From Escherichia coli (GTDB taxonomy: Bacteria; Pseudomonadota; Gammaproteobacteria; Enterobacterales; Enterobacteriaceae), in NCBI GenBank assembly GCA_032372955.1, contig GCA_032372955.1_4725.1: DNA of 64,000 nt; one strand, given 5' to 3'. The notes below the pieces were generated by a model. That model made no database searches. It saw nothing but the letters and a program-made list of their open reading frames with translations, and was not told where the DNA came from. The translations under genes and the position numbers were made by a program. Positions 3,718-28,014 of this stretch are shown in pieces. Within the stretch, counting starts at the first letter, position 1. Each line of letters begins with the position of its first letter.

Positions 3718-4560
3718 TTATTTTTTCGCGTTCTTTTTAACGGCGTCCCAGGTATCGTTATATGCGATGATCGCCTCAGCCAAAGCGTTCACGAGAAACG
3801 CATACAGTTCAGCCTGCTTGGCTGTTTGGTAGATAGCGTCGCTAATATCGCGAATCATCGCGTTGCTCACCGCACCTTCATTGTAGTCTTGAACCAGGAT
3901 TTCGGTTAAACGGTCAGCCACCTCCATGAAACGTTCGATTGCCTTCTTCACGTCTTTAGGATTAACGTCAAGCGCACGGATACGAGAAGCATCCAGATCT
4001 TTTCCGATCTGACGAATATCGTCTTCGTTCTTATATGCACGGCCTACAGTGGTCTGTGTTACCGTCCCTTGTTTGAACATCGCACGTAACGTCTCTAGAA
4101 CGTTCTCTGGGTCGTTTTTAGGTAGCGTCTGAGCCATACCACTACTGCGACGGAAGTTAACGTCGTTGACGGCTTTAGCGCACGTTACGGTCAACTTATC
4201 CAAATCAGGTAGGATGGTGCCAATTACGCTATCCAGACTCTGGGTTAAAGCAACAACATAATCTGACATCGGCGCATTTAAACCATTCGGAATAAAAGCG
4301 CGATACCCAATGAGATCGCTGTAAGCGTTGTTGCTAAAAATCGGATCGAGGTCATCGAAGACTTTAGGATAAACCGTCACATCACGTTTCTTAAGCCAAT
4401 CGGTAACAAACTTCTTACCGTTGGTAAACATACTACGAAGATTCGTTACCGCGGTAAGTGAAGCGAAGTCTTGCGCAAAGCCTTCCATTGATAAAGCACG
4501 GTGTGAATCCCAAAGGGTCTGCAGTGTAATAGGGTCTTCAGGAATGGTAAATTTATGCAT
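3718..4560 (-). CDS. hypothetical protein
   Basis: ATG with GAGGA SD (minus strand); 280 aa. Confidence 0.7.
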   Translation of the reverse strand: MHKFTIPEDPITLQTLWDSHRALSMEGFAQDFASLTAVTNLRSMFTNGKKFVTDWLKKRDVTVYPKVFDDLDPIFSNNAYSDLIGYRAFIPNGLNAPMSDYVVALTQSLDSVIGTILPDLDKLTVTCAKAVNDVNFRRSSGMAQTLPKNDPENVLETLRAMFKQGTVTQTTVGRAYKNEDDIRQIGKDLDASRIRALDVNPKDVKKAIERFMEVADRLTEILVQDYNEGAVSNAMIRDISDAIYQTAKQAELYAFLVNALAEAIIAYNDTWDAVKKNAKK

Positions 4561-4658
4561 GATTGTCCTCGTGGAAATAGCGGTTGTCAGTCTTAACTAA
4601 AAATAGTTATTCTCTGAACACTAAGAATTAGTCGAAGAATCGAAGGAGTCTTTACCCA

Positions 4659-6149
4659 ATGAATCTTAATAAGTACCTTTCTCCCGGTGAAGAGATGCGT
4701 TTTAATCTCAACATTGGTTGCTTAATGGATATTCCCACATCTGGTGGTCGGTACTATGTCGGTAAACACGGTGAAAGCATTTGTAACGGCGGCATGATGC
4801 TTGTTGAGGGCGCAGGCGCTCGCGGCAACATGAACAAAACCACGTTCATAATGTTTCGCTTGTTACGCGTTATCGATCGTTACGCAAACAGCAATAGTAG
4901 CGTTTACGACACAGAAATGTCGTTAACAACAACACGTATCTTAACGCTTGCGATGAACATGTCTAATATCGCAGGTGTCGATCTTTTCGAAGAAGAACGT
5001 GTGTTTATCACCGATGCTGTTCAGATGAGCGGTAACATTTGGTTTGATGCGATTAAGAAATTCCGTGACGACAAGGTCAAAGATAAATCTCAACGCAAAG
5101 CCGTTCCGTTTATTAATAAACATGGTGAGAACTATACCTGGTGGTTGCCGACCGTCGTACTCATCGACAGTTTCTCTGGGTTACCAATCGATGCCGTTGA
5201 TGCACTGTTCGATAAAGAAACCGCGGGTGGCGCAAAACTGAATGCCGAAGCGATGCGTTCAGCAGCAGCGAAAAGCCAGATTCTATCACAGATGCCAGTA
5301 CTCACAGCGTCGGCGGGTATCTACATTACCATGACCGCCCACCTTGGTGACGGTGTAAACGTTGGTGGTATGCCGGGACAGCAGCCGGTACGAAAACTGA
5401 AAGGGTTTAAGGGCGATGAGAAGTTTAAGAACGTCCCGGAACGCTTCACGTTTTATACGAATAACCTCTGGAAAATCGATAAACTGACGATTCTTCAGAA
5501 CGCCGATAAACGCGTCCTTTATCCGCGCGGGCCTGGTGACAACCTTATCGGGGATACCGATCTGCAGTTGATTCAAGTCTTCAACATGCGCGCTAAAAAC
5601 GGACCCACCGGCTTACCGTTCCCGATTGTGGTTAGTCAGAGCGAAGGGGTTAAACCATCATTAACGGAATACCACTACCTGCGTGATAAAGATTGGATGC
5701 GTGGTTGGGGTATGCATGCGTCAGGTGGTAAATCAGCTGATGGTGCTTCAACGGTATATTTGGATATTTATCCGGATGTTGCGTTGCAGCGTACGACCAT
5801 TCGTTCTCTTTGCGAAGAGGATGAGTATTTACAGCGTGCTCTGGAAATTACGTCGGAGCTGTGTCAGATGCATAATCTCTGGCGTCAAGAGGTTTACGAA
5901 AACCCACAACTGTATTGCACCCCACAGGAACTGTACGACGATCTTAAAGCAAAAGGTTTCGATTGGGATGTATTGTTAAACACGCGTGGTTACTGGACGT
6001 ATTTGGACGATCCTAACCCACTGCCGTTCCTGTCTACAATGGACTTATTGCGTATGCGCACCGGTGAGTACTTTCCGTACTGGATGGATGAAAAGACAAA
6101 ACAACCAAAGAACCCGGTACCCGCATTGAATCGTCCGAGTAAAAAATAA
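4659..6149 (+). CDS. RecA/UvsX-like recombinase candidate
   Basis: Walker B-like VVLIDS followed by a RecA-like segment (AEAMRSAAAKSQILSQMPVLTASAGIYITMTAH) and a glycine-rich loop; AAGGAG SD; Walker A not canonical, so tentative. Confidence 0.4.
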   Translation: MNLNKYLSPGEEMRFNLNIGCLMDIPTSGGRYYVGKHGESICNGGMMLVEGAGARGNMNKTTFIMFRLLRVIDRYANSNSSVYDTEMSLTTTRILTLAMNMSNIAGVDLFEEERVFITDAVQMSGNIWFDAIKKFRDDKVKDKSQRKAVPFINKHGENYTWWLPTVVLIDSFSGLPIDAVDALFDKETAGGAKLNAEAMRSAAAKSQILSQMPVLTASAGIYITMTAHLGDGVNVGGMPGQQPVRKLKGFKGDEKFKNVPERFTFYTNNLWKIDKLTILQNADKRVLYPRGPGDNLIGDTDLQLIQVFNMRAKNGPTGLPFPIVVSQSEGVKPSLTEYHYLRDKDWMRGWGMHASGGKSADGASTVYLDIYPDVALQRTTIRSLCEEDEYLQRALEITSELCQMHNLWRQEVYENPQLYCTPQELYDDLKAKGFDWDVLLNTRGYWTYLDDPNPLPFLSTMDLLRMRTGEYFPYWMDEKTKQPKNPVPALNRPSKK

Positions 6150-14142: not shown

Positions 14143-17100
14143 CTACTGTGCGTACCTTGTCCGTGTTGGAGAGATTCCTTGCGGACGATTAGGTAGTGAC
14201 ATCGTCTGTTGTTGAGAAGGACCTGCAGAACCCTTACCGATAGAAGAACCCTTAACGGCTTGGATTAATTCCGAAATAAGTTCATTCGTTCTACCGGTGT
14301 TCTTTTCGATGTTCTGCTGTGTGGTCAGCTGCTGTCGGAGAATTTCACCTGCGCTACCGTAGAAGTTCTCACTTGCAACCGATGTTTGTGTCGCAGACTG
14401 CGCAACCTGTGCAGGCGTATTCGGAACCGATATCCCTCGATTTGCACCCGGGTTTGACGGCAAATCGCTAGGTGCTGGAGTTGATGTCGGTTGTCCTGCC
14501 GCGGCTTTTGCTGTTTCGAAACTTCCGGGCGTTGGTGATGCTTCTCCAGGTGCTGGGGCCGTCCCGGCAGCCGCAGACGGTTTAGATTCAGGGATAGTAG
14601 AAGATACCGGGGCTTGCGGATCGTTGCTTACAGCAGGTGTTCCGTTTGCCTCTTGTGCTGCTTCGTTCTTCACCTGTTCGGCGGTGGTCGGTCCTTCAGC
14701 TTGATCGTCTGATGTTGATCCCGATAACTCGTCCATCATTTTCTTCAGGGTGCCATTCTTAGCCGCCTGAATCCAATAAGCAGAACGTTGTTCAACATCA
14801 CGTAATCCGTTAAAACCACCGTTAACCAGATAACGAACTTGGCGCACATCACCCCGTTTTGCGGGATCGCGTAACACGTTACCTCGGTTGAGCCACCATG
14901 CAACACTACCTTCCGCCGCACCTTCCGGCGTTTCCAGGTATGTCGGATCGCTGACAAGATCCTTGTTCAAGGTCTTGGACAGACGAGCGTAGTTAGCTTT
15001 ACCGGTAACCTGAATGAAGCCACGTCCTAAATACTTCGCCCCGTCTCCTTTCTGTGTGTTTCCTAGATCTTTACGATTACCATACACACGTTCGAATACC
15101 GCTTCCGGCCCCATGCTGATCGTCTGTGCGGCATCCTGCACATCACGGAATTTGTAAGGGAAGACCTGTTTAAGACGCTCTGGTGTCTTATAGTTCCCCT
15201 CACGTACGTGAGTGTAGTTCCCCGATTCATGTTCGATGTTCGCAAGGAACATCGCCATTTCCATTGGATCGGTAATGCCGCGTTTTACAGCGGATTTAAC
15301 AAGCGCACGACGTCCAGCTTCAGGACCTGGTCCCATTGCAGGTTTCTGTAAGCCCATGTTAGGCAATCCAGTAAGATCGCCGGTTGACCCTAATCCCGCA
15401 TTGGAAGTAGCCGAAGCAGTAAAGCTGCTTGCACCTACCCTATTCCCATTGGGGTTGTAATTCGCTTCGGCGTTACTCATCCCACCGGTAATGCGTGATT
15501 TCTTCTGCCAGACACCGTCTTTCTTCTCGTACCCAGCCTGCTTCATCATCAGCTCTTGGATCTTCGATAATTTATCGGTATCCTCTTGCGATGCTTCCGC
15601 GTTCTTCTCACGAACCTTCTCTTTATCCGCATATTCTTTTAACAGATCGAGCTGGCTCTTTGTTGAACTGCTGGTGGTGTTAGCTTCAGTACCGGAGAAA
15701 CCACAACTATTCCAGGACCATACAGGCTGCAGTGTACCTTTCTCATCACGGTATTGCGTTGCGACAAGTGCTTCACCGATTTCCCAACGTTGGCTGTCTT
15801 TCAGGTTCTGTACCACGTCGGACAGAAGTCCTTGACCGCCCATGTCGCTAACGTGTTGGTAATAGGTTAAAAAGACGGGCAGGAAACGGTTATTCATCCA
15901 AGCAAACCAGATATCCTGATCCCGCTTGCTGTTAACGTCCCGTCCGAACTTCGTCGCGAATTTCTTGTAGAGCGCGACAAGATCGCCACCGTATTTAACA
16001 CCTTTACCTTCAGCGACAACGCCAGGTTCTACAGCGTCTTCGAGTTCCATCAGCACTTTTATCTGACTTAGCAACGGAACCTTAATACCGTACGCACGAA
16101 CACGGAGACTGGTGAGTTCATCGATGTATCCACCGGCAACCCATTTTCTACCACGACGGTCTACGCTTTCAATAACCGCGGTCGCGTCAAGCTTCTGTCG
16201 TCCTTTAGCGCCAGCGCTGTTGTAACGTTTATCGTTAAAACGTAACGACGCTTTCTGACCGCGTAATGCGTTAGGCGCAACGGATTTACGTTGTGTGTCA
16301 GACATCCGTGACCAATCAGCAATAGCCTCATCATGAGAGTATTGCTTAATCTGATTCTGGTACTCTTTCTTGATGGCTTCGAGTTGTTTCAGCATCAAGG
16401 TTTTGACGTCTTGACCAGCAATATAACGCGTCGCACCAGAAGAACCCAACGGGTTAGCTTCGACGTAATACGGACCATCAGGACTATCGGAAGGCCAGAT
16501 AAACGCTTCCGACCATTTCACTTTGTTCTCACCGTTCGGATATTTATCCATTTCCATGTATTTCTTCTCGTCCGGCATATGCTCTTTCCAGAGTTTGTAC
16601 GCACGAGCGAAAACAGGAATAAAACGATGCAGATACCAGCGTTTCCATTCGTTCATTCGGTCGGAATCTTCCAGGGACAATTCCCAGATTTCGAGAATCT
16701 TTTCAGAATCCGCTTTCGGATCGAATCCGATGGTATCCCCGGTCATGACCACATGGTCGGTGAGGTATGTTTCTGTCGCAAGCAGCTTCTTATTGAAGTC
16801 TTTATCGTCCCCTTTTGCACCGTATGCAATAAGACGGAGCTTCTGCATCGGGTCAGGCTTCTCAGCGAAATGCTGATAGATCTTCCATCCAGCATAAGCA
16901 GCCAACGCACCACCTGCAATAGCAAGCCCAACAGGTGAGATAAGGAATGCACCTAATCCCGATAACCCACCAACAGCGTTCAATGCGGCCCCGCCCGCCA
17001 TTAACGCACCACGTCCTAACCATCCTGCTGCACTTAGTCCTCCCTTGACTAGCGCGCCGGTTCCACTAATGAGACCCTTGCCTAACAACCCGGTTAACGA

Positions 17101-20100
17101 TGCACCGCCGCTTAACACCGCCCCAAGACCGCCTAGAATTTTTCCAAGCGGACTCGCCATGAGTCGTTTACCTAATGCGGTATCGCCGAGCATATCGAAA
17201 AGGCTTCCGAGTAATCCCCGTTTCTTCTCCTTTTCTTCTCCTTTATTGGAATCTTTGCCGGTGTCGTCCTTACCGTTTTCCTTGGCTGCACGCTTACGTT
17301 TCAGGTCTTCCAACGATCCTTCTCGAACACCATCGCCATTCCAATCGCGGTAATCCTTATCGCCACCCGGCATACGCTGGTCAAGAAGCTGGTAAATAGC
17401 ATCGAGGCGATCTACCATGCTCGACGTTGTTCCCACCAGTAATGCGTCAGGTGATTGGAAATTTAATCCCATCCGTCGTAGACCGTTAACGGTTTTACCT
17501 GGAAGGGCTTTAAGGATGTCCTTTGTCTTACGTAGCAGCGTTAACGGTAACGTAAAAGCTTTTACGCCGAAGTTGATGAGCTTTTCTTTTAAACGACGAA
17601 TCGCTTTACCGTATTTATCGACAAGTCCTTTCTGCATGTCGGCAAGCGTAAGTACGACGTTACCTTGTGCATCAACAACATCACCATCGATGTCTTCAAG
17701 ATTTTTGATGACTTGTCCATCAGAGCGACGGAAATACCCGCCAGCTGCTAACACCATGGACAACAGACGAGGCGTTGATTCTCCCTTGACGTAAACGTCG
17801 GGTGTTTTGTCAAGCTGTTTGTAGATCTCGACCGCACCGCGTTTTAACATCCGTGGCAGACTTAATACCGTCGTGATTCCATTAAGACCTTCACGTGCCC
17901 ACGCCTTAAGTCCTGAATTCTCAAAGGCACGACCAGCGCGAGTGACCAACCCTTTCTCGATATCCTCGTTGCTGATTACGATGTTTCCATCCGCATCAAC
18001 GAGTGGGCCTTTGATATCCTTCATCCGTTTTACGGCTTTTCCTGTCGCTTCGTCGAAGTATAACCCCTGACGAAGTTTGGCAGCCAGTATGCGTGGTTGG
18101 GATTCCCCTTTAACGTAAATGTCAAACGGAACCTGATCAACCTTGGATAATGCGCCGAACACAAAACGGTTGAAATTGATAATGCGTCGGCCGGAATTTA
18201 CCAAACTACCCAACGTGCGTTCTGCACCCCAGCGTGCGCCTTTAACACCCAAACGTGCGGTATTTTTAATTCCTTTCCAGAGGAGATTACGGCCACCTTT
18301 AAAGAGGTTGCGTGCACCGAGTTTTTGTTTGGCACGATCGATAAATGAAATGGGTGCTGTACCTTCAGGTACATCTTCACCATCCAGTGAAACGTTATTA
18401 GACCAGTCTTTCTCAGAAATGGCTTTCAGCAACGCAAGCATTTCAGTACGTTGTTCGGATGCTTCAGATAACGCTTCGAGATAAAGCTCTTGCCACGCTC
18501 GATTCTGTTCTTCAAGCGATGTGGTGATAACACCCGTGTCGTTCCACCATTTATCATAGCCGATGTTTTCATCAACGGTTACTGTTCCAACAGCCTTGCG
18601 ATCGATGTTCGGCAGACCCGCATTTTGGACGTCATCAACTGATGGTTTTGCGTCACGATAACCTAGCGCCAGCGCTCTTGTTTCCTGAGCGGTTAATCGC
18701 GTATTAACATCACTACGTTCAGCGTACTCCGGTCGGTCGATGTATCGATCGATTTCAGAGAAATACCGATCGTGATTAACCGAGTAGCTTCCGTCGCTAT
18801 TTCTCGTTACGATACCGATACGTTCCAGATATTGGACGTCACCAGTACGTTTCAGTAGGTTAAGGTTACGCTGGATATCCGGTTGTAACGATTTCAGATT
18901 TCCGTAGCGAAGATCCGCTCGGTTACGTTCCGTGTAATATTGCCCGCGGTTTCCAATGACCTGATGACGTTCGCCCTTATCGTTGACATCATCACGAATA
19001 CCGTAACGGTCACGAAAGTACGTGGAAAGTTCCTTAATAGCGTCGCGGTCAATACTACGATCGAAGTTGCTTTCATCCGTAAAACGAGCCGGGTCGAATG
19101 CGATGTTTGCGTCGCTATCTCGTGCCAGCTGCTTAGCCAGTGCCTTCCTGGCTTTTTCCGATAATTGTTTATCGGGATCGACGACCGAGATAACCTCATT
19201 GAAACGGCTGGCGTAATAACCAAATGAACGTTTGTTAAACAGGGTGTCGTTGACGCTTTGTTCGCGCGTGCGCTGAGCCACGAATTGCCCGCTGATGCCG
19301 TCATAGACCTCGTAGTCGGGATCGCTGTTTCCCGTGCGGATGCCTTCACTGCTTTTCAGAATGCGAGCAAGAAAACCAGGAATAACTTCATTGATGCTGC
19401 GGTAAGTTAAACCGTCGAAAGACGTCTGCTCCGCCAATGTTTCAGCGGTGTCGTTCATCACACGGAAGTTACGTCCGCTGTCCATGTTGAACGCCCAACG
19501 CCCTGCGCCGCGTAACAATTGCTTGTAAAACGGATCGTTAAGATTGAATTCGTTTTTACGAATATCTTCCTGGAGCAGTTTACCGAGATTACGCGTCGTG
19601 TAAGCGGCAGCCTCACCACCTTGATCCACGGCTTTTAACGCGCTAGCGAATTTAGCGTTGGGGTGACGTTTTGCTAAATCGCGTAACGCCATCCTGCCTT
19701 TATTAGCCATCCATGGTGCGACAGTTGAGCCAATGAACTGACCCAACATCTTTCCTTGCATTTCCTTAATATCGCCTTCTGACCCCATCCCATCCATCAT
19801 GGACATCGAGTCACGTGCTTCGTTTAAACCGTATAACGCATCGTTTGCGCCAGACACGACGCCTTTTAAAGCACCTAATGCGTTGGTGGCAAGGTTCTTC
19901 TTAACATCGGCAAAGAAACGGTTCTCGAAAGAACTCATCGCATCTAACGCGTTACCAAAGAAACGTTGGTACGCGCTACGGCGGAATTCTTCCGACATTT
20001 TTGCTTTAGCTGCATCAGGTAAAGCCGTATTCTTCTGGATGTTTTGTAATAAACCGATATAGACTTCGGCTAACTTTTTATGCTGATCAAAACTTGCACG

Positions 20101-20808
20101 TTGAATCGCTAAGGAACGATATTTCAGTTCCAGGCTTTTACGCATGTAGCGCGCGGCGAATTCATTGTTGAAACCAACCATCTTGGCGACGCCTTCTTGC
20201 ATCGCACTCATTTGTTTGTTGGTTACAGCGTACCGTTTGTCAGCGATATCGTCACGGATACTCTCTTTCGCTTGCTGCTCAGCAAACTGATCCGCGTTTT
20301 GGTTTGCTGATTCGCCTAATGCCTCGGCAACCTTGCGGGCGATCTCATCGTCCCCCGCGCTCGCCATGCGTTGACGAAGGGTTTCTTCAGCATGTTTACG
20401 TTCGTCTTCTTCCTTGGCTTCTCGCTCCCACTGCTCGAGAATTTTCTTCGAGAAATCGGGCATGCTCGCGCGGTATTTCTTGGTCAGTTGTGCAGCTAAC
20501 CGTTTTGAGCTTTGGACCTTAGGAAGAACGTCACGAACGGCTTCATTGTATAGTTCCTTCGTGGATCCGACGGCGGAATCGATAAGATCCATACCGTCGC
20601 TGTAGCCCTTAGGCAATGCGTTTCTGGCGATCTCCTTCATTCTTTCGTAGGAAGTAAGATCTTCAGCAGCACCTTTAACCGCGCCTATCGCAAAGCGTGT
20701 TATCGGTTTACGATCGTCTTTGGGTTCGTTAAAATCGAGATCCAGGGAGAAGTCATCATCCCAGTTATCCCAATTATCATCACCCTCAACACGGGTTTTA
20801 TCTACCAT
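14143..20808 (-). CDS. giant protein (2221 aa) with C-terminal GH19 chitinase/lysozyme-like domain and Gly/Ala-rich hydrophobic segment
   Basis: First ATG 20808 has GGAGG SD (ORF-track TTG at 20925 is upstream); GH19-like signature (EHESGNY ... LGNTQKGDGAKYLGRGFIQVTG ... YW) encoded about 14790..15270; glycine-zipper hydrophobic run mid-protein; architecture recalls the phiKZ gp181 virion lysin. Confidence 0.8.
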   Translation of the reverse strand: MVDKTRVEGDDNWDNWDDDFSLDLDFNEPKDDRKPITRFAIGAVKGAAEDLTSYERMKEIARNALPKGYSDGMDLIDSAVGSTKELYNEAVRDVLPKVQSSKRLAAQLTKKYRASMPDFSKKILEQWEREAKEEDERKHAEETLRQRMASAGDDEIARKVAEALGESANQNADQFAEQQAKESIRDDIADKRYAVTNKQMSAMQEGVAKMVGFNNEFAARYMRKSLELKYRSLAIQRASFDQHKKLAEVYIGLLQNIQKNTALPDAAKAKMSEEFRRSAYQRFFGNALDAMSSFENRFFADVKKNLATNALGALKGVVSGANDALYGLNEARDSMSMMDGMGSEGDIKEMQGKMLGQFIGSTVAPWMANKGRMALRDLAKRHPNAKFASALKAVDQGGEAAAYTTRNLGKLLQEDIRKNEFNLNDPFYKQLLRGAGRWAFNMDSGRNFRVMNDTAETLAEQTSFDGLTYRSINEVIPGFLARILKSSEGIRTGNSDPDYEVYDGISGQFVAQRTREQSVNDTLFNKRSFGYYASRFNEVISVVDPDKQLSEKARKALAKQLARDSDANIAFDPARFTDESNFDRSIDRDAIKELSTYFRDRYGIRDDVNDKGERHQVIGNRGQYYTERNRADLRYGNLKSLQPDIQRNLNLLKRTGDVQYLERIGIVTRNSDGSYSVNHDRYFSEIDRYIDRPEYAERSDVNTRLTAQETRALALGYRDAKPSVDDVQNAGLPNIDRKAVGTVTVDENIGYDKWWNDTGVITTSLEEQNRAWQELYLEALSEASEQRTEMLALLKAISEKDWSNNVSLDGEDVPEGTAPISFIDRAKQKLGARNLFKGGRNLLWKGIKNTARLGVKGARWGAERTLGSLVNSGRRIINFNRFVFGALSKVDQVPFDIYVKGESQPRILAAKLRQGLYFDEATGKAVKRMKDIKGPLVDADGNIVISNEDIEKGLVTRAGRAFENSGLKAWAREGLNGITTVLSLPRMLKRGAVEIYKQLDKTPDVYVKGESTPRLLSMVLAAGGYFRRSDGQVIKNLEDIDGDVVDAQGNVVLTLADMQKGLVDKYGKAIRRLKEKLINFGVKAFTLPLTLLRKTKDILKALPGKTVNGLRRMGLNFQSPDALLVGTTSSMVDRLDAIYQLLDQRMPGGDKDYRDWNGDGVREGSLEDLKRKRAAKENGKDDTGKDSNKGEEKEKKRGLLGSLFDMLGDTALGKRLMASPLGKILGGLGAVLSGGASLTGLLGKGLISGTGALVKGGLSAAGWLGRGALMAGGAALNAVGGLSGLGAFLISPVGLAIAGGALAAYAGWKIYQHFAEKPDPMQKLRLIAYGAKGDDKDFNKKLLATETYLTDHVVMTGDTIGFDPKADSEKILEIWELSLEDSDRMNEWKRWYLHRFIPVFARAYKLWKEHMPDEKKYMEMDKYPNGENKVKWSEAFIWPSDSPDGPYYVEANPLGSSGATRYIAGQDVKTLMLKQLEAIKKEYQNQIKQYSHDEAIADWSRMSDTQRKSVAPNALRGQKASLRFNDKRYNSAGAKGRQKLDATAVIESVDRRGRKWVAGGYIDELTSLRVRAYGIKVPLLSQIKVLMELEDAVEPGVVAEGKGVKYGGDLVALYKKFATKFGRDVNSKRDQDIWFAWMNNRFLPVFLTYYQHVSDMGGQGLLSDVVQNLKDSQRWEIGEALVATQYRDEKGTLQPVWSWNSCGFSGTEANTTSSSTKSQLDLLKEYADKEKVREKNAEASQEDTDKLSKIQELMMKQAGYEKKDGVWQKKSRITGGMSNAEANYNPNGNRVGASSFTASATSNAGLGSTGDLTGLPNMGLQKPAMGPGPEAGRRALVKSAVKRGITDPMEMAMFLANIEHESGNYTHVREGNYKTPERLKQVFPYKFRDVQDAAQTISMGPEAVFERVYGNRKDLGNTQKGDGAKYLGRGFIQVTGKANYARLSKTLNKDLVSDPTYLETPEGAAEGSVAWWLNRGNVLRDPAKRGDVRQVRYLVNGGFNGLRDVEQRSAYWIQAAKNGTLKKMMDELSGSTSDDQAEGPTTAEQVKNEAAQEANGTPAVSNDPQAPVSSTIPESKPSAAAGTAPAPGEASPTPGSFETAKAAAGQPTSTPAPSDLPSNPGANRGISVPNTPAQVAQSATQTSVASENFYGSAGEILRQQLTTQQNIEKNTGRTNELISELIQAVKGSSIGKGSAGPSQQQTMSLPNRPQGISPTRTRYAQ

Positions 20809-21053
20809 GTATACCTCCAGTTCGATACGTTCCCATGTTACGTTGGAACGTGATGCACGAAGTTTACCTTCGGCATTGATAATGTTGAAGCGTAACTTCA
20901 CACATCGCCCGCTTGATTTTATCAAGCAGGTACGTAACCTAATAACTTCCTCGCCTCAAGCAAGGAAGCGATGGGTGACGCCATCACCCATTACGTCTCT
21001 CGTGTGTTCAGATGATACCGCCGCAGCCGGTGGTGGTAAAGAGGAGTGTCTCC

Positions 21054-22520
21054 ATGGCTAAAGTCAGAGAGCCGTTTAATATTAGCATTTTGCGCCTCGA
21101 TAAACAGCAGTTACGTTTTCTCCCCAAGATCACGAGCATGAGCATCCGTGACCCAAGCACCGGTAATTTCCACGATGATGGTTTCTATTCTTACACCATC
21201 TTTGGTAGTGCGGGTAGTGAAGATCGAGACCGTCGATTTGCGGTGATCGAATGCAAGGTTGAAATCCTACACCCCGTCATTTACGACCGCCTCATTCGAC
21301 TAAAACACCTCTATGGCGATATCATGTCGGGGAAGGCGTACGCTCGGTGGGATCCTGAACAACGCGACTTCGTTGCGTCTGATGCGTTAACAGGACAAAC
21401 AGGATACGGGTTCTTTGCACAACACGTCGCGGATATCAAGTTCGTTTCAACGGGTTCAGCTCAACGAGAGCTACGAATTAAAGTTGTCGAAGAGAACATG
21501 TTCAAAGCGATGACCCGTCACTTACTGGTATTGCCTGCGGGCTTACGCGAAATAGAAGTAAAAGAAGGCGGGTATGAAAGCGAGCAAGAAATCACGGAGT
21601 TGTATCGTCGTTTCCTTGCAATTTCTAACACCGTCCCTGATGGATTAAAAGATTATTCTGATCCCGTTTACGACGGTCAACGTTGGAGCTTACAGAGAAC
21701 ATTTAACGATATCTACGCTTTGTTGTTGGATATGTTCCAAGGTAAGAAAGGGATCTTCCAAGGTAAGTTCGGTTCACGTCGCGTTTGGAACTCAACCCGT
21801 AACGTTATTTCGGCAATTAACCCCACAACAGAGGTACTAGGGTCGCCCAACCAGCCTTCCTGTACCGCAGTTCAGTTAGGGTTATACCAGATGAGCAAAG
21901 CCGCCCTACCCGTGACGCAACATGCGTTACGTACGGGGATTTTGCAGGAAATATTTGTCCGTGATGTTACAGAAGTTGAACTTATCGATACCGAAACGAT
22001 GGAACGTGAACGTGTCACGCTTGATCCAGACACCATCGATGACTTTACAACATGGGACGGAATAGAACGTTTATTGAACACCTTAAGCGATCCTGGTGTA
22101 CGTAACGAACCCATCATGGTTAATGGGCGTTATCTTTGTCTCGTCTATGTGAACAATGATTCGTTTCGGTTATTCCGTGGTATGAGTGAATTACCCCCGG
22201 AGATGCTGAATAAGCCTGGTGCGGATGTTCACCCCATCACGTACACCGAGCTTATCTATATTGCCGGATATAAGTACTGGAATAACCTGGCTGCGATGGT
22301 AACACGTTATCCGGTATCGGGTATGCAATCCGTTATCCCGTTAACCTGTTACGCGCGTACAACCGTTGCAGCAAAACCGAAAACCGAACTGGATAGTAAC
22401 TGGGAACCAATAACGGATGAACGATTTATCGCATGGGAATACCCCGACTGGTTACCTAATGCCTCGTTCGTAGAAACTACTATTGTTCCTGCGCCATACC
22501 TCGCCGGTTTAGGCGGTGAT
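21054..22520 (+). CDS. multisubunit RNA polymerase beta-prime N-terminal fragment, exon 1
   Basis: ELYRRFLAISN and GKKGIFQGKFGSRRVWNSTRNVISAINP match conserved beta-prime regions; ATG 21054 with GAGGAG SD; proposed 5' splice site after T22520; ORF continues 31 codons into the intron to a stop at 22616. Confidence 0.7.
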
Positions 22521-23002
22521 AAGTCCTTGAAAAATAAAGACTTTTTTCAATGGAAGTTGTCCGGTATTCCCGAAAGGGAGTGCTTGAAAAACCTACGAAT
22601 TGCTGGGAACCCCTAAAGCTCAACGACCCATGAGGTGCCGAAAGGCAGAAACAACAGTTGAGATGCACTACCTCCCACGGAGGCTTAGGCTGAAAGAAAA
22701 GCCGCGTAAGCGGTGCTAAGGTGCGCGATAATGGGCAATCAGCAGCCTGGTTGTTGCGTAGTAATACGGCATTCTTGAAAACAAGAATGTGAAACAACGC
22801 AGGTTCAACGACTAAGGGATTTACCACCCTGTAGAGGACAAGCGTCTTCGAAGTGTAGGTTACCGTAACAGGTGTTGCTGAAGTATTCTTCAGCGAAGCT
22901 GACGGTTTGATATAGTCTCCTCTTGCATGAAAGTGCAAGCAGCCTGTGATGTACGTATCCATGCAGGCGGTCTCAGCGTAGCGACCTGAGGCGAAGACAA
23001 GG
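22521..23002 (+). ncRNA. group I intron 1 (in beta-prime gene), 482 nt, no internal ORF
   Basis: P AATTGCTGGGAA 22598-22609; Q CAATCAGCAGCC 22736-22747; R GTTCAACGACTAAGGG 22803-22818; S GATATAGTC 22909-22917 (GACTA/TAGTC forms P7); GNRA hairpins; exon ends in U, intron ends in G; boundaries inferred, about +/-10 nt. Confidence 0.7.
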
Positions 23003-23182
23003 TTCGACGGTGATACGGTCTCGGTTAACGTTCTTTATTCCATGGAAGCCATTGACGAAATTACCAACTCGCACAAGAAGCGAGCTTTCTGGGTAAGTGG
23101 TAAAAATAAATTCAACATCGATATTGGTTACGATACGGTTGCGTTTCTATTACGCAACTTAACGGGACCTCGTGGAGCCTAA
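23003..23182 (+). CDS. RNA polymerase beta-prime fragment, exon 2 (carries FDGD of catalytic motif)
   Basis: Open frame FDGDTVSVNVLYSMEAIDEI... ending TAA 23180-23182; joined to exon 1 gives ...LGGD|FDGDTVSV, i.e. a DFDGD motif. Confidence 0.55.
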   Translation, partial: FDGDTVSVNVLYSMEAIDEITNSHKKRAFWVSGKNKFNIDIGYDTVAFLLRNLTGPRGA

Positions 23183-23185
23183 CCC

Positions 23186-26100
23186 ATGGCAAAACTTAAA
23201 TACCTTGATTACTACCGACAGTTTGGTGTCAGACGCTACCAAGAGCTACTATCACCAAGATTACGTTTAGTGCAGCTACTGCAGCTGCCGCGTTATGCTG
23301 TCTATCATTACACCGCAACGGATCCTTCATTGATAGGTCCTCCAGAAAACGAATACATGCTGAGCAAAGAAAGTGCTCAACTATGGATTTCGTTTGCTGA
23401 TGATCTCGCAACCAAACAGGGTGCACCCCGACGTGATCAACGATTCCAACTCCCACGAGCGAAATTGGATTATCGTGCATCACATCGTCGTTTTCGTTTG
23501 GTTACCGATCTAAGCGCGGTGGAGAAAAACATCAACGCTCAGATCGTTGCTAACTACGCGCATCTTAACCACATGTACATTTATCGTCCAACGCTCACCC
23601 GTTGGTATGATGAATGGTTCAACGTACGTAAAACAATTTGGTCGAAAGCCAACGAAATCGCACAGCAAAGCGATCGTCAACACTTTTTGTTGTTCCGTAT
23701 ACCGTCAAAATTGCCGAAGATTTCGTTGATGCGTACCACGCAACAGGCACCGACCCGTAACAACCTCATGAATTTCGCCACGCCGGAGGAGCTGTCGTTC
23801 TTTGACTTCTTCCGCTGGTTGGGCGTCGATCGTGAGAACAGCACGATGGCTTCGTTAGACAGGGCCATGCTGGATAAGCTTAACGTCGTATTTACAGACG
23901 GTGTGTACTTCTTTACGCTGAATCTCGGCCTGCTGGAGGAATGGCGTACCGGACTTGTGAAGGAAGGGGAAGAACTCGATAAAACGACGCTTGAAACCTT
24001 CCAACGACGTTGGATGATGGCGGTAACACGTCTGTGGTCGCAGAGTGCGAATGAAGAAGAACAGAAACAAGAAGAGGAACAGGTTCTTCGTCAAGAGCGA
24101 GATATTCTTGCAGCCAGCCCGGATGCGGAGTACGATGATCGTGACGTCGTGCTTCCTAACGGTGAGGATCTGGCTACCGTTCTCGATCCCGATGAGTTAG
24201 AAGCGGAGTTGGTCGGTGGGTCGGATGAAGACGATGATGCTGATGCATGGAACGCCATCGTAGAACGCTCGTTCGAAGATGTCCGTGAAGTACCTGGGGT
24301 AGAAGTACAACCGGATTTCCAACCTGATGAAGATCAGGACATTACCGACGATCTCTTCGAAGTCGTTACCGACGATACCGAAGAAGAAAAGGTTGATGTC
24401 TTTGACGCGGCAACGTTACCAAAAACGCATGGCGAATATATTCAGTCGCTATCGGATGCGGTGTTGGTACGCGCGAGTGATCTGGCGGATGCGGGTCAGT
24501 TAAGCGGTGTCCAGTATAAAGCAGCGATGCGTAACGCCGACGCCATTCACGAAATCGAAGCACCCGACGGTTCTGGATTAACACTTGCTGAGTATGTCGA
24601 AGTTAAACCAAAAGCCGCAAAATTAGCTCCCGCAAAGGTTATGCCGGAAGCGGATGTTATCGTCGACAAGAGCTTATGTAAATCGACGCTCGCGGTGTGG
24701 GATAAACATTACGTCGAACACGTAATGCAAAAGGACATCGCAGCTGCCGTTGTTGCGGTACAGCAGGCGGGTTACCCTGTTACGGGATATAAAGTTGAAG
24801 ATGTTGTTGACGTGATGGGGGACTATCAAGTCATCACGATTAAACTGGCCCCTGTAGGCGGTGTCCCGACCACGTTCCCGGTGATGTTGCCGAAGGTTCG
24901 TAAGGACGGCATTTATGTCGTTAACGGTATCAAGTACCGGATGCGTAAACAACGCGTCGATAAACCTATTAGAAAGGTATCGTCATCTGAAGTCGCATTG
25001 AGTACCGCCTACGGTAAGGTGTTTGTTAAACGTTCAGAGCGCGTCGTTAATAACGCCGGTCGTTGGTTAACACGCCAACTTACGGCGATGTATTACGATA
25101 AGTCCTCGCCCTTAACAACGTTAAAACGCGGTAACGTCTTTGATCCGGCTGTCAAAGTTCCGTATTACTTCGCTGTGCTTGCACGCAACTATACCCAAAT
25201 CCAATTTGCTGATTGGGATATACGTCTCGATATAAAAACATTGCCGGAGTTCATCGGGGAAGATCGGTTCAACGAACAGTTAGCCGAAGGACTCCTGACG
25301 TTCGCGCGTAACACGTTGGGTGAATTCTTAGCAATCGATAAACGCAATCAGCTCTATATCTGTCAGTCGGGACAAACACCAACACCTGTAGGGACGTTCC
25401 CTGATTTCTTCGGCATTAATGCGGCTAAGATGCCGATCGAAGCCGCCGATCTTGAATTCATGGGTGTACGTATTCCGGTCGGTGTTGTTCTAAGTTATCT
25501 GGGTGGGCTTACCCCGTTATTAGAACATCTTAAAGCGAACTATCGTACGGTACCTCGCGGCTCTCGTATGGGGTTAGCACCCGATGAATTCGCAGTGAGC
25601 TTTGACGACGAAAGTCTGATCTTCAGTAAAGACGATCGCATGACGACGTTGTTGCTGGGTGGGTTTAACGAATACCGTAACTACATTGGTTACGCTCGCG
25701 GTGCTTTCGACAATCGAGATATCTATTTTAACGTTGTTGATGGTGCTGGACTTAAGGTTCGCCATTTGCGCGAACTTGAACTCATGGAGCGTCTTTTCAT
25801 CGATCCGGTAAGCCGTACGTTGTTGCAGAACATGGGAGAACCTACCGATTTCGCCATGTTGTTACTGCGTGCTGTTGAACTGCTTCTGGATGATTGGGCA
25901 CCTAACACGAACGATGTGAACTACCAACGTTTTAAAACGTACGATAAGTTCGCTGAATTGGTGTATAAGGACCTGGTTGGCGCTATTCGTCAGAATGAGA
26001 ACAGCAGTCAAGGGAACCGCCAGAAAATCTCAATCAGTCCGGTAAGCGTCTGGAACCAAATTCTCGACGATAGCGCTTCCATCGTGATCGATGAAACCAA

Positions 26101-26392
26101 CCCGATGCTGGATATCAAGCAGGGTGAAGAAGCAACGATGACCGGTATCGGGGGTCGTTCAAAGACATCGCTTCGACGCGCACGTGATCGCGAATACGAC
26201 AAGTCGGACATTGGTGTTGTATCCGAAGGTACGAAGGATAGTGGGGACGTAGGTATTTCTGCTTACCTCGCACCTAACGCAAACATTGTGTCTGTATACG
26301 GTGAAACGAAACCTTACGACGAGAAAACGGATGGTAGCTCGTCAATAATGAGTACATCAGCACTTGCAGTACCTGCTGCTGATAGAGATGAT
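23186..26392 (+). CDS. multisubunit RNA polymerase beta fragment, exon 1
   Basis: ATG with GGAG SD; C-terminal part has beta-like TGIGGRSKTSLRRARDREYD ... VVSEGTKDSGDVGISAYLAPNANI; about 500 aa N-terminal extension; in-frame TAA at 26393 is proposed to be intronic. Confidence 0.75.
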
Positions 26393-26874
26393 TAACGCTT
26401 TTAATAGCAGGGTCCGTCTATGTGGCGACATGTAGATGAGATTCACTGAATTGCGAAGACATCCGTCGCTGTTATCGACCAAAACGGATTCTGAAAAGAA
26501 AGACGGTACGGTATAAAAACAGATAATAGCTTAAGGACAATCCGCAGCCAAGTACCTAAGGATCGCTGTGAAGCGTTCTAAGGTAAAGGTTCAACGACTA
26601 AGGGATTCATCCCCCTGTACCCCTCGAGTGAGGCATTCTCCTTGGATAAGAGAATGGTGCTGGATGCGCTGGGAAGAAGTGAACTCTCGTTGAGGTGCTG
26701 AAGAAGCACCGTTTGAAACGAGATGTGATATAGTCTGCTCTTGCGTGAGAGCGCAAGCGGGAGGTGGTGCGCCTATCATCGCCTCCGGGATAAGACTAAC
26801 GACCTTATCTGAACAATCTAATCTCAGTCTTATTTCGGTAACGGTATGTTAATACTGAATAAGAACTAAATTCG
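26393..26874 (+). ncRNA. group I intron 2 (in beta gene), 482 nt, no internal ORF
   Basis: P GAATTGCGAAGA 26448-26459; Q CAATCCGCAGCC 26538-26549; R GTTCAACGACTAAGGG 26589-26604; S GATATAGTC 26727-26735; 3' hairpin TAAGACTAACGACCTTATCTGAAC; 5' splice site uncertain within 26365-26393. Confidence 0.65.
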
Positions 26875-28014
26875 CCCAAGAGATTGGTATTTATAGGTAT
26901 CCAACACAACCGCATGATTGCTGCTGAAGGTTACGATGTACAGCCGTGGCGTACGGGTGGTGAGACTGTTATCGCGCATCGTGTTGGTAAGCTCTTCGCA
27001 GCAGCTGCCCAAGGCGATGGTGTTGTGAAGAAGGTCACTAAAACTGCGCTGACGATACAGTACGACGACCCAGAGTTAGGGGAAGAGGTTTTCCAGCTCG
27101 GTACGATAATCGGGAAAGGACCAGGTAAGTATTATCCTCACGATCTCATTACCGATTATAAAGTCGGGGATCGCGTTAAGGATCAGGATGTGGTGGTTTT
27201 CCACCGCCTTTATTTTAAACGCGATTGGTGGAACCCAGGTCAGGTTGTTTGGCGCGCAGGTGTTCTGTCTCTTGTCGGTATTCTGGATATTCCAGAGACC
27301 CACGAGGACAGCTCGTATATCTTCGACAATCTTGCTGATCGTCTCGTAACACCATCGATTAAGAGTCGTACGCTTATCGTTGACGCTCATCTCAACATTC
27401 GTGGTCTCGTGAAAATCGGTGATCATGTTGAACCGCGAACGATTCTTGCAACACTGGAAGAACCGATTGCAACCGATCTGAGTGATGAGAGTCAGGAAGC
27501 CGTTGAAGCATTACGTCGTATGAGTCAGTATAACCCACGTGCTGATGTTCATGGTGAAGTTGTACAGATCGATGTACTGTACCGCGCTCAGATTGAAGAC
27601 ATGAGTGAAACCATGGCAGCGCTCGTCGGTGAGGCAGATAAAGCACGAGCTAAACGCGTCAAGGAACTGAAACTCAACGAAGCAACAACGGGGCGTATCA
27701 ATAACAGTAACGTGAGAATAGACGGTAATCCGTTAGGCGAGAACCAGATCGCCATCCGTATTTTCATGCGTTACGACCTTGGTGCGGGGATGGGTGATAA
27801 AGGTACCTTCGCAGCTCAAGCGAAATCCGTTGTCTCTTCCGTGGGTCATGGTGTGAACAAAACCGAAGACGGGCACACCCTTGATGCTATCTTCAGTGGC
27901 ACCAGTATCGCTAACCGTATCATCGGTTCACCGGAAGTGGTTGGGACTGTGAATCTTGGTCTCCTCTACGCAACGGAACGAGCTGTTGATATTTACTTTA
28001 ACGACGCTAAATAA
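26875..28014 (+). CDS. RNA polymerase beta fragment, exon 2
   Basis: Begins PKRLVFIGIQHNRM (fork-loop-like) and contains GDKGTFAAQAKSVV ... EDGHTLDAIFSGTSIANRIIGSPE (beta GDK...GNKG / SRMN-like region); only a TTG with no usable SD in this frame, so independent translation is unlikely. Confidence 0.7.
   Translation, partial: PKRLVFIGIQHNRMIAAEGYDVQPWRTGGETVIAHRVGKLFAAAAQGDGVVKKVTKTALTIQYDDPELGEEVFQLGTIIGKGPGKYYPHDLITDYKVGDRVKDQDVVVFHRLYFKRDWWNPGQVVWRAGVLSLVGILDIPETHEDSSYIFDNLADRLVTPSIKSRTLIVDAHLNIRGLVKIGDHVEPRTILATLEEPIATDLSDESQEAVEALRRMSQYNPRADVHGEVVQIDVLYRAQIEDMSETMAALVGEADKARAKRVKELKLNEATTGRINNSNVRIDGNPLGENQIAIRIFMRYDLGAGMGDKGTFAAQAKSVVSSVGHGVNKTEDGHTLDAIFSGTSIANRIIGSPEVVGTVNLGLLYATERAVDIYFNDAK

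What the first reader, a model, noticed from the sequence alone, without database searches (positions are those of the whole stretch)
26393..26874. Second group I intron, splitting the RNA polymerase beta gene near the fork-loop region
The 490-bp gap between the two beta ORFs has the same core (P GAATTGCGAAGA, Q AATCCGCAGCC, R GTTCAACGACTAAGGG, S GATATAGTC) and a 3' hairpin GGGATAAGACTAACGACCTTATCTGAAC that resembles, from memory, the 3' region of T4-type group IA2 introns. The downstream ORF has only a TTG with no usable SD yet begins with the conserved fork-loop-like RLVFIGIQHNRM, so fusion by splicing is the simplest explanation. The model U26392 to C26875 gives ...PAADRDD|PKRLVFIG in frame and an intron of 482 nt, the same length as intron 1. 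The 3' boundary is supported by a terminal hairpin plus 10-nt tail ending in G; the 5' site is less certain (26365..26393).
Basis: partly seen in the sequence, partly recalled or inferred. Interest (0 to 1): 0.9.

Follow-up and report, generated by a model that had tools for sequence, protein, structure and literature searches.

The report
Self-splicing intron in phage polymerase gene
A 482-base self-splicing group I intron with no gene of its own interrupts the virion RNA polymerase beta gene of a Goslar-like E. coli jumbo phage, at the same conserved Asp-Asp site as the published PhiPA3 mobile intron, so it is a real but ordinary new member of a known kind.

Summary
Window 26393-26874 is a 482-nt group I intron (Rfam Intron_gpI, 52.8 bits against a cut-off of 50, E 1.5e-10). 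It splits the virion RNA polymerase beta gene, the homolog of phiKZ gp178.

Removing the 482 nt gives a 1448-aa protein, the same length as the uninterrupted Goslar gp207 and 1429/1449 identical to it (stop codon counted).

The insertion point (..DRDD|PKRLVF..) is the conserved Asp-Asp site (bacterial RpoB ..EHDD|ANRALMG..). The published PhiPA3 gp210 mobile intron (Birkholz 2024) occupies this same site. It is not the fork loop, which lies about 80 residues upstream.

Four Goslar-like genomes form a natural series:
- no intron (Goslar);
- 482 nt and 461 nt versions without an ORF (the window, and one IMG/VR genome);
- a 1583-nt version carrying an HNH endonuclease 36% identical to PhiPA3 gp210.

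All three intron-carrying alleles share a diverged, mostly synonymous stretch of flanking exon, which is a co-conversion tract left by homing. Exon 2 is under strong purifying selection from its first codon, although it has no conserved start codon.

Verdict: a new member of a known kind.

The parts
23186..26392 (+). Exon 1 of the virion RNA polymerase beta gene (phiKZ gp178 / Goslar gp207 homolog). It encodes 1069 aa ending ..AVPAADRDD.
   Evidence: The spliced product is 1429/1449 identical to Goslar gp207. The region around the junction is 44% identical to PHIKZ178.
26393..26874 (+). Group I (IA2, T4-type) intron of 482 nt with no ORF. Its first three bases, UAA, stop translation of unspliced RNA.
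   Evidence: Rfam Intron_gpI scores 52.8 bits, E 1.5e-10. The 482 nt are exactly the extra sequence relative to Goslar. The MFE z-score is -3.5.
26875..28014 (+). Exon 2, 379 aa plus the stop codon, beginning PKRLVFIGIQHNRM.
   Evidence: Against L004 there are 44 synonymous and 1 nonsynonymous codon changes. TTG26884 is CTC in the relatives, and the first ATG is codon 14.
26390..26414 (+). P1. Exon G26390-A26391-U26392 plus intron U26393 pair with G26411-G26412-U26413-C26414, the internal guide sequence GGUC, so that U26392 forms a wobble pair with G26412. An inner helix GCU 26397-26399 / AGC 26406-26408 closes a 6-nt loop.
   Evidence: Read. GGUC (AGUC in PhiPA3) is conserved in 5 homologs, and the +1 pair is U.G, C-G or U-A. 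In L007, L018 and PhiPA3 the endonuclease ORF sits between the 5' splice site and this guide sequence. Only 3 exon base pairs form, so this helix is inferred rather than shown.
26416..26437 (+). P2 hairpin, 9 bp with a GCGA tetraloop.
   Evidence: Stem sequences differ and the loop is GNRA in all 5 homologs (GCGA, GUGA, GAGA).
26442..26447 (+). P3 5' strand UUCACU, pairing with 26678-26683 AGUGAA.
   Evidence: Rfam alignment. L018 (CUUAU/GUAAG) and PhiPA3 (CUUCUC/GGGAAG) carry compensatory changes.
26452..26546 (+). P4 (26452-26457 UGCGAA / 26541-26546 UCCGCA, with an A26456 x C26542 mismatch) enclosing P5 and a peripheral P5 extension of about 80 nt.
   Evidence: L007 has UGCGGG/UCCGCA, fully paired. 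Blastn does not align 26400-26533 to L007.
26548..26589 (+). P6/P6a/P6b. The pairs are CC/GG, UACC 26553-26556 / GGUA 26582-26585, and a GAUCG/CGUUC hairpin.
   Evidence: P6a is CGCC/GGUG in L007 and L018.
26596..26600 (+). P7 5' strand GACUA, which holds the guanosine-binding helix and pairs with 26731-26735 UAGUC. It forms a pseudoknot with P3.
   Evidence: Invariant in all homologs and in the T4 td intron. The S-region block GATATAGTCTGCTCT is identical to td.
26603..26673 (+). P7.1 (GGGA-UUCA-UCCC, 26603-26614) and the P7.2 domain (about 26620-26673, including the hairpin 26634-26640 / 26650-26656). These are the extra helices typical of subgroup IA.
   Evidence: P7.1 is GGGU/ACCC in L018 and CCG/CGG in PhiPA3.
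26685..26723 (+). P8. The outer helix is 26685-26691 / 26717-26723 and the inner helix is 26694-26699 / 26705-26710, with a GAAGA loop.
   Evidence: L018 has compensatory stems and the same GAAGA loop.
26740..26815 (+). The 3' domain. P9 is 26740-26757 with a GAGA tetraloop, P9.1 is 26760-26786, and P9.2 is 26789-26809. The segment 26784-26815 matches T4 td.
   Evidence: P9.1 shows an A-U to U-A swap in L004. The segment is 31/32 identical to td, and 31/31 in L004.
26826..26874 (+). An extra terminal hairpin (26826-26840 / 26853-26867), then the tail AAAUUCG ending in the terminal G26874 (omega-G).
   Evidence: The hairpin is 22 nt shorter in L004 and L007 and absent in L018, PhiPA3 and td, so it is a lineage-specific peripheral insertion.
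26180..26392 (+). Upstream co-conversion tract in exon 1. This exon DNA is strongly diverged from the intron-less Goslar allele, mostly at synonymous positions.
   Evidence: There are 38 mismatches in the last 150 nt, against a 4.7% background. The tract is shared by all three intron-carrying alleles.
26875..26905 (+). Downstream co-conversion tract in exon 2, which includes Pro CCC where Goslar has Gly GGA. C26875-C26876 could pair with G26411-G26410 to form a 2-bp P10.
   Evidence: The P10 pairing is inferred and weak.

Best explanation
Window 26393-26874 is a self-splicing group I intron of the T4-like IA2 type. It has no ORF of its own and is inserted in the gene for the beta subunit of the virion-packaged RNA polymerase of a Goslar-like E. 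coli chimallivirus.

Inferred mechanism, which is the standard group I pathway:
1. The last exon bases G-A-U pair with the guide sequence GUC (26412-26414), placing U26392 in a wobble pair with G26412.
2. A free guanosine bound in P7 (26596-26600 / 26731-26735) attacks after U26392.
3. The freed exon-1 3'-OH then attacks after the terminal G26874.
4. The ligated mRNA encodes a 1448-aa beta subunit that reads ..AVPAADRDD-PKRLVFIGIQHNRM.. across the junction.

Unspliced RNA stops at the UAA formed by intron bases 1-3.

The element is a version, lacking the endonuclease gene, of the mobile intron family that occupies this Asp-Asp site in PhiPA3 (gp210) and other chimalliviruses. It reached this lineage by homing from a diverged donor, which left a co-converted exon tract. 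It is now propagated passively and incidentally removes the endonuclease target site.

What is shown: the RNA family match, the exact boundaries, the restored reading frame, the site homology, the polymorphism among relatives, the co-conversion tract and the selection on exon 2. What is inferred: splicing itself, the P1 and P10 pairings, and the history of the endonuclease gene.
For: - Rfam Intron_gpI passes the gathering score over the full model.
- Goslar gp207 is uninterrupted. The window differs from it by exactly 482 nt, and the spliced product has the same length and is 1429/1449 identical.
- The only in-frame boundary with U at -1 and G as the last intron base is 26392|26393 ... 26874|26875.
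- Helices P1, P2, P3, P4, P6a, P7.1, P8, P9, P9.1 and P9.2 stay complementary, with compensatory changes, in five homologs: the window, L004, L007, L018 and PhiPA3.
[quoted passage not shown] PhiPA3 and Serratia 2050HW share the same GATGAT|T 5' junction, and 2050HW shares the ..TTCG|CCA 3' junction.
- L007, a 237.5-kb Goslar-like genome, carries the same intron with a 403-aa HNH/NUMOD1 ORF that is 36% identical to PhiPA3 gp210, E 3e-56.
- The three intron-carrying alleles have 35-38 mismatches to Goslar in the 150 nt upstream of the 5' splice site, against a 3-5% background.
- In exon 2, the window and L004 differ by 44 synonymous and 1 nonsynonymous codon changes. The first ten exon-2 codons, which lie upstream of the first ATG at codon 14, differ at 8 nt, all synonymous. 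The TTG is not conserved.
Against: - No RNA or protein data are available, so splicing has not been observed.
- The Rfam score is only 2.8 bits above the threshold.
- P4 carries an A x C mismatch that the endonuclease-carrying relative lacks.
- P1 has only 3 exon base pairs and P10 only 2.
- The 5' quarter of the intron (26400-26533) is not alignable with the endonuclease-carrying variant, so the window intron is not a simple deletion derivative.
- The genomes are sequencing or metagenome assemblies, and phage viability is not documented.
Confidence: 0.9

Rival explanations
1. The beta gene is truly split here. The intervening RNA no longer splices, and the two halves are made as separate polypeptides that assemble, as other chimallivirus RNA polymerase subunits already do.
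For: Beta and beta' of phiKZ-type polymerases are naturally divided into separate genes (established knowledge; see also the annotations). A TTG lies at 26884. Automated gene callers call two proteins. P4 has a mismatch and the Rfam score is marginal.
Against: The TTG is CTC in L004 and L007, and there is no usable Shine-Dalgarno sequence. The first ATG is codon 14, yet codons 1-13 are conserved in protein with only synonymous DNA changes. The break falls inside the most conserved catalytic-site motif (DD|xxR), which is uninterrupted in most homologs: 277 of 291 phage records show one near-complete place covering the junction. The ribozyme helices are maintained by compensatory changes. The intron is more conserved (9 differences in 368 nt) than the exons.
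Confidence: 0.05
2. The intron is a decaying relic in a defective or recently disabled genome. After the endonuclease gene was lost, the ribozyme is accumulating damage and the beta gene is effectively a pseudogene.
For: There is no ORF. P4 carries an A x C mismatch shared by the window and L004. L004 also has a C x A mismatch in inner P8. The sequences come from assemblies, not from characterised isolates.
Against: Two genomes about 95% identical both keep intact exons with about a 10:1 ratio of synonymous to nonsynonymous changes. Neither exon has a frameshift or an internal stop. The intron core is well conserved. The beta subunit of the virion polymerase is essential in phiKZ-type phages (PMC11620839).
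Confidence: 0.04
3. The resemblance to a group I intron is fortuitous, and the 482 nt are some other insertion, such as a different mobile element or a regulatory RNA.
For: None beyond the marginal Rfam score.
Against: The full-length model match has E 1.5e-10. The P/Q/R/S core is identical to T4-type introns. Homologous introns at the same site carry homing endonucleases. Removing the insertion is exactly in frame.
Confidence: 0.01

Closest known systems
PhiPA3 gp210 mobile group I intron in the vRNAP beta gene gp211/209 (Birkholz et al. 2024, Science; PMC11620839)
   Same: It is in the same gene (phiKZ gp178 homolog) and at the same insertion point, directly after the two conserved Asp codons (GATGAT|T). 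It has the same ribozyme type, with the guide sequence (A/G)GUC just before a GNRA-capped P2 and the same P7 and S core and P9.2 loop UAACGA. The endonuclease-carrying variant in the Goslar-like genome L007 encodes an ortholog of gp210 (36% identity).
   Different: The window intron has no endonuclease gene: 482 nt against about 1.3 kb. It has a different P5 extension, larger P7.2 and P8 domains, and an extra hairpin of about 50 nt between P9.2 and the 3' splice site. The host is E. coli rather than Pseudomonas.
Phage T4 td intron (subgroup IA2, carrying I-TevI)
   Same: It shares the R and S core sequences, with GATATAGTCTGCTCT identical. It also has helices in the P7.1/P7.2 position between P7 and the 3' strand of P3. 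The 3' segment CCGGGATAAGAyTAACGACCTTATCTGAACA is almost identical: 31/32 in the window and 31/31 in L004.
   Different: The host gene is different (thymidylate synthase), and so is the endonuclease family and position (GIY-YIG, in P6). In td the 3' splice site follows about 10 nt after P9.2. The rest of the intron is not alignable by blastn.
Goslar intron 1 (annotated Intron_gpI, HOV27_gs002) and window intron 1 (22521-23002)
   Same: It belongs to the same IA2 lineage, and the P7-P7.1 and P9 sequences are nearly identical to intron 2. It also lies in a virion RNA polymerase catalytic motif (beta' ..LGGD|FDGD..). The window copy is the same length, 482 nt.
   Different: The gene and site are different. 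In Goslar, intron 1 carries an HNH endonuclease (gp206) that is only 27% identical to the intron-2 endonuclease family.
ORF-less insertions at or near the same beta site in Pseudomonas phage phiRU (Elvirus), Vibrio phage BONAISHI and Aeromonas phage PS1
   Same: Each is a 370-500-nt intervening sequence without an ORF that splits the vRNAP beta homolog at ..HDD| or at ..DDSKR|. All match the full length of the Rfam group I model.
   Different: Their matches are below Rfam's gathering score (35-40 bits). The sequences are not alignable with the window intron. The PS1 site is 9 nt further downstream.

Membership tests
Group I intron (Rfam RF00028) | The covariance-model score reaches the curated gathering threshold over the catalytic core (P3-P9). 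| tested here: met
   52.8 bits against 50, E 1.5e-10, model positions 1-253, window 26391-26757.
Group I intron (Rfam RF00028) | The 5' splice site follows a U that forms a wobble pair with a G of an internal guide sequence (P1). | tested here: met
   U26392 is the last exon base. GAU|U pairs with GGUC at 26411-14. The guide sequence is conserved in 5 homologs, and the +1 pair is kept by a change on one side in L018 (C-G) and in PhiPA3 (U-A), against U.G here. The helix has only 3 exon bp.
Group I intron (Rfam RF00028) | The last intron nucleotide is G (omega-G). | tested here: met
   G26874. The relatives end ..UUCG|CC (L004, L007, 2050HW)..GCUG|CC (L018) and ..CUCG|AU (PhiPA3).
Group I intron (Rfam RF00028) | Excision restores an uninterrupted, conserved reading frame. 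| tested here: met
   The spliced ORF is 1448 aa, the same length as Goslar gp207 and 1429/1449 identical to it.
Group I intron (Rfam RF00028) | Self-splicing dependent on guanosine, demonstrated on RNA. | not testable with these tools
   No transcript data are available. This needs RT-PCR or an in vitro GTP-labelling assay.
Subgroup IA2 (T4 td / nrdB / sunY type) | Additional helices P7.1 and P7.2 lie between P7 and the 3' strand of P3, and the R and S sequences are T4-type. | tested here: met
   Hairpins lie at 26603-26614 and within 26620-26673. R is GUUCAACGACUA. The S block is identical to td, and the P9.2 segment is 31/32 identical to td. The subgroup was assigned by resemblance, not with a subgroup-specific model.
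Mobile (homing) group I intron | The intron encodes a homing endonuclease. | tested here: not met
   The intron has no + strand ORF of 60 aa or more. The 62-aa minus-strand ORF 26591-26779 has no Pfam hit. No gp210-family endonuclease is found elsewhere in the 64-kb window. The variants in L007 and L018 do encode one.
Mobile (homing) group I intron | Closely related genomes are polymorphic for the intron, and flanking exon sequence is co-converted. | tested here: met
   Goslar has no intron, while the window, L004 and L007 do. There are 35-38 mismatches in the 150 nt upstream against a 3-5% background, and the tract is shared by the intron-carrying alleles.

The most novel reading that the evidence does not exclude
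The ORF-less intron may be kept because it works as a cheap immunity element in warfare between intron endonucleases. By occupying and recoding the Asp-Asp target site, it would protect this phage's essential virion-polymerase gene from the gp210-type HNH nickase of co-infecting Goslar-like phages such as the L007 type, without the cost of carrying the endonuclease gene.

A second, less likely reading concerns its mosaic make-up. The 3' half is about 96% identical to the endonuclease-carrying variant, the 5' quarter is unrelated to it, and a 31-nt stretch is identical to T4 td. This could record recombination between introns of a nucleus-forming phage and of T-even phages in the same E. coli host.
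Probability: 0.3. Interest if true: 0.5.

Novelty: new member of a known kind. Interest (0 to 1): 0.3.

Why it matters
The finding corrects the annotation of this phage lineage. The two 'beta' ORFs are one 1448-aa virion RNA polymerase subunit, and the flanking gene calls (a 1069-aa and a 366-aa protein, and a 160-aa antisense ORF over intron 1) are artefacts of unrecognised introns.

It also provides a clean natural series within genomes about 95% identical: an empty site, two intron versions without an ORF, and a version carrying an endonuclease. The series comes with a defined co-conversion tract and belongs to the E. coli model relative of the system in which an intron endonuclease was shown to mediate competition between phages (PhiPA3 and phiKZ). 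That makes homing, endonuclease loss and intron-conferred immunity directly testable in Goslar. It does not reveal a new kind of element or mechanism.

Tried and rejected
- Pfam found nothing for the three polymerase ORFs, which are too divergent. Their identity therefore rests on Goslar and phiKZ homology, on a weak match to bacterial RpoB in the PDB (E 0.053) and on the published PhiPA3 alignment.
- The search for homologous proteins returned only one hit because of its k-mer pre-filter. That hit nevertheless led to L018.
- The minus-strand ORFs over the introns (22480-22962, 160 aa; 26591-26779, 62 aa) have no Pfam match and are treated as chance ORFs.
- A pattern from the Q-P6 region pulled in nine unrelated intron-rich viral contigs (L008-L016). 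Some carry 2-5 group I introns each. They are not polymerase-related and were not pursued.
- At the gathering threshold Rfam missed the PS1, phiRU and BONAISHI insertions. They appear only at the E-value threshold.
- I did not build my own covariance model, because the intron (482 nt) exceeds the 400-column and calibration-time limits. Helices were instead checked by script on five homologs. In that script's output the printed positions of short motifs are first occurrences and not reliable; only the complementarity strings are used.
- P10 could be assigned only 2 bp, and no convincing longer P1 was found.
- I considered and rejected an alternative 3' splice site right after P9.2, as in td and PhiPA3. 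It would not restore the frame or the Goslar-length protein.

Full report
**Observation.** The region sits between an ORF that ends with TAA at 26393-26395 and an ORF that starts at TTG 26884.
- P at 26448-26459
- Q at 26539-26549
- R at 26589-26604
- S at 26727-26735
- the 3' hairpin at 26787-26814

An Rfam scan of the whole window at curated thresholds gives exactly two hits, both Intron_gpI. One is at 22535-22939 (64.1 bits). The other is at 26391-26757 (52.8 bits against a gathering score of 50, E 1.5e-10, full model). The intron RNA folds better than all 100 shuffles (z = -3.5), and the predicted hairpins match the assigned helices.

**Boundaries and host gene.** The window is about 93.5% identical to Escherichia phage Goslar across this gene. 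Goslar's gp207 ('RNA polymerase beta subunit', 1448 aa) is uninterrupted. The window carries exactly 482 extra bases. Joining U26392 to C26875 gives a 1448-aa product that is 1429/1449 identical to gp207, counting the stop codon. The junction reads DRDD|PKRLVF, against DRDDGKRLVF in Goslar. The protein is the homolog of phiKZ gp178, the beta subunit of the virion-packaged polymerase.

**Which motif is interrupted.** A weak match to bacterial RpoB (E 0.053) aligns ..SALAVPAADRDD|PKRLVF.. with ..SASLIPFLEHDD|ANRALMG... It places fork loop 2 (ALGPGGL, here MTGIGGRS) about 80 residues upstream. The 'fork-loop' label is therefore wrong, although the point about a conserved motif stands.

**Structure.** The following were read from the sequence and checked by script on five homologs: the window, L004, L007, L018 and PhiPA3.

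| Element | Window coordinates | Comparative support |
|---|---|---|
| P1 | exon GAU + U26393 with GGUC 26411-14 | U26392 wobble-pairs with G26412; the +1 pair is U.G, C-G or U-A among homologs |
| P2 | 26416-37 | GNRA loop in all five, unrelated stems |
| P3 | 26442-47 / 26678-83 | several double compensatory changes in L018 and PhiPA3 |
| P4 | 26452-57 / 26541-46 | one A x C mismatch, absent in L007 |
| P6 | 26548-89 | P6a is CGCC/GGUG in L007 and L018 |
| P7 | 26596-600 / 26731-35 | invariant, identical to T4 td |
| P7.1, P7.2 | 26603-73 | P7.1 stem covaries |
| P8 | 26685-723 | compensatory stems, conserved GAAGA loop |
| P9 | 26740-57 | GNRA loop |
| P9.1 | 26760-86 | A-U to U-A swap in L004 |
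| P9.2 | 26789-809 | stems covary, loop UAACGA conserved |
| extra hairpin | 26826-67 | shorter or absent in relatives |
| tail | ends at G26874 | terminal G in all homologs |

The helices P7.1 and P7.2 and the R and S sequences place the intron with the T4-type IA2 introns. Window 26784-26815 is 31/32 identical to the 3' end of the td intron in more than 200 T-even genomes, and 31/31 identical in L004. P1 (3 exon bp) and P10 (CC 26875-76 with GG 26410-11) are weak and are inferences.

**Relatives and history.** Four Goslar-like genomes differ at this site.
- Goslar has no intron.
- The window has the 482-nt version.
- IMG/VR UViG_3300045988_173921 (L004, about 96% identical overall) has a 461-nt version with a shorter terminal hairpin.
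- IMG/VR UViG_3300011560_000001 (L007, 237.5 kb) has a 1583-nt version.

In L007 a 403-aa HNH/NUMOD1 ORF lies between the 5' strand of P1 and the guide sequence, and its 3' end overlaps P2-P6. That ORF is 36% identical (E 3e-56) to PhiPA3 gp210. Birkholz et al. showed that gp210 is a nicking homing endonuclease. [quoted passage not shown]

PhiPA3's exon 1 ends AAC GAT GAT|T. Serratia phage 2050HW has both GATGAT|TAA and TTTTCG|CCA, the same splice-site sequences as the window. A more distant relative (L018, 62% aa identity) has the same arrangement. The endonuclease family occurs in 11 deposited jumbo-phage records.

Insertions without an ORF, 370-500 nt long, occur at or next to the site in phiRU, BONAISHI and PS1. 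They match the group I model at 35-40 bits, below its threshold. Klebsiella phiKp_32 and Aeromonas PS1 use a site 9 nt further downstream (DDxKR|ALFSG).

**Evidence for homing.** Against the intron-less Goslar allele, all three intron-carrying alleles show 35-38 mismatches in the 150 nt upstream of the 5' splice site and 8-12 in the 60 nt downstream. The background is 3-5%. Within that tract the three alleles are nearly identical to each other. The changes are mostly synonymous. This is the co-conversion signature expected when an intron arrives by repair from a diverged donor.

**Evidence that the exons are joined.**
- Exon 2 differs between the window and L004 by 44 synonymous and 1 nonsynonymous codon changes.
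- The first ten exon-2 codons differ at 8 bases, all synonymous.
- The TTG at codon 4 is CTC in L004 and L007, and the first ATG is codon 14.
- This stretch is therefore translated in frame from the splice junction without its own start codon, as splicing predicts.
- The intron core (9 differences in 368 nt) is more conserved than the exons.

**What is not shown.** Splicing itself is not demonstrated. The Rfam score is marginal, and P4 is weakened in the ORF-less versions. The 5' quarter of the intron (26400-26533) is unrelated to that of the endonuclease-carrying variant, while from 26533 onward the intron's 3' part and the adjoining exon 2 are about 96% identical. The window intron is therefore a mosaic rather than a simple deletion product. 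No gp210-family endonuclease is present elsewhere in the 64-kb window, and the rest of the genome was not available.

**Verdict.** This is a real, correctly delimited group I intron, a new member of a known and already published kind. It is useful for annotation and as a natural series for homing and immunity experiments in the Goslar system. It is not surprising to a specialist.

Noticed in passing
window 22521-23002, with exon 2 at 23003-23183: Intron 1 (482 nt, Rfam 64.1 bits) splits the beta'-like subunit inside the catalytic motif: ..YLAGLGGD|FDGDTVSVNVLYS.. (E. coli NADFDGD). Its 60-aa second exon is not called by ORF finders. In Goslar the same intron carries an HNH_3/NUMOD1 endonuclease (gp206) that the window copy lacks. 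Vibrio phage vB_pir03 has an intron at the same D|FDGD site.
   Followed up: partly
window 22480-22962 (- strand): A 160-aa ATG ORF lies antisense to almost the whole of intron 1. An automated gene caller called it as a gene in the Logan contig (L017 2295-2777). It has no Pfam match and is probably a chance ORF over structured RNA.
   Followed up: partly
window 26784-26815; L004 intron positions 394-424: The P9.2 segment is 31/32 identical to the T4-type td intron (31/31 in L004), including the same 6-bp stem. The orthologous introns of PhiPA3 and L018 have different stems. This could mean segmental exchange between introns of E. coli phages, or simply conservation. It is unresolved.
   Followed up: partly
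window 26400-26533 versus L007 2983-4239: The 5' quarter of the intron (the P1 loop to the P5 extension) is not alignable with the endonuclease-carrying variant. From 26533 onward the intron's 3' part and the adjoining exon 2 are about 96% identical. The ORF-less intron is therefore a mosaic, not a simple deletion of the endonuclease gene.
   Followed up: partly
window 26456 / 26542: There is an A x C mismatch in P4 of both ORF-less versions (the window and L004), where the endonuclease-carrying L007 has a G-C pair. This may weaken the catalytic core.
   Followed up: no
L020 (Klebsiella phiKp_32) 4299-5689; L021 (Aeromonas PS1) 630-1004: These phages carry introns in the same beta gene, but inserted three codons further downstream (DDPKR|ALFSG and DDSKR|ALFSG). 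This is a second, staggered insertion site next to the Asp-Asp site.
   Followed up: partly
L009 and L013 (IMG/VR contigs of 5.5 and 13.3 kb): Two short viral contigs found through a shared Q-P6 string each carry five Rfam group I intron hits within a few kb. Their host genes were not examined.
   Followed up: no
window 14143-20925 (- strand): A very large ORF (2260 aa) lies divergently upstream of the polymerase genes. It occupies the same position as the PhiPA3 gp213 'tail fiber protein' gene. It was not analysed.
   Followed up: no
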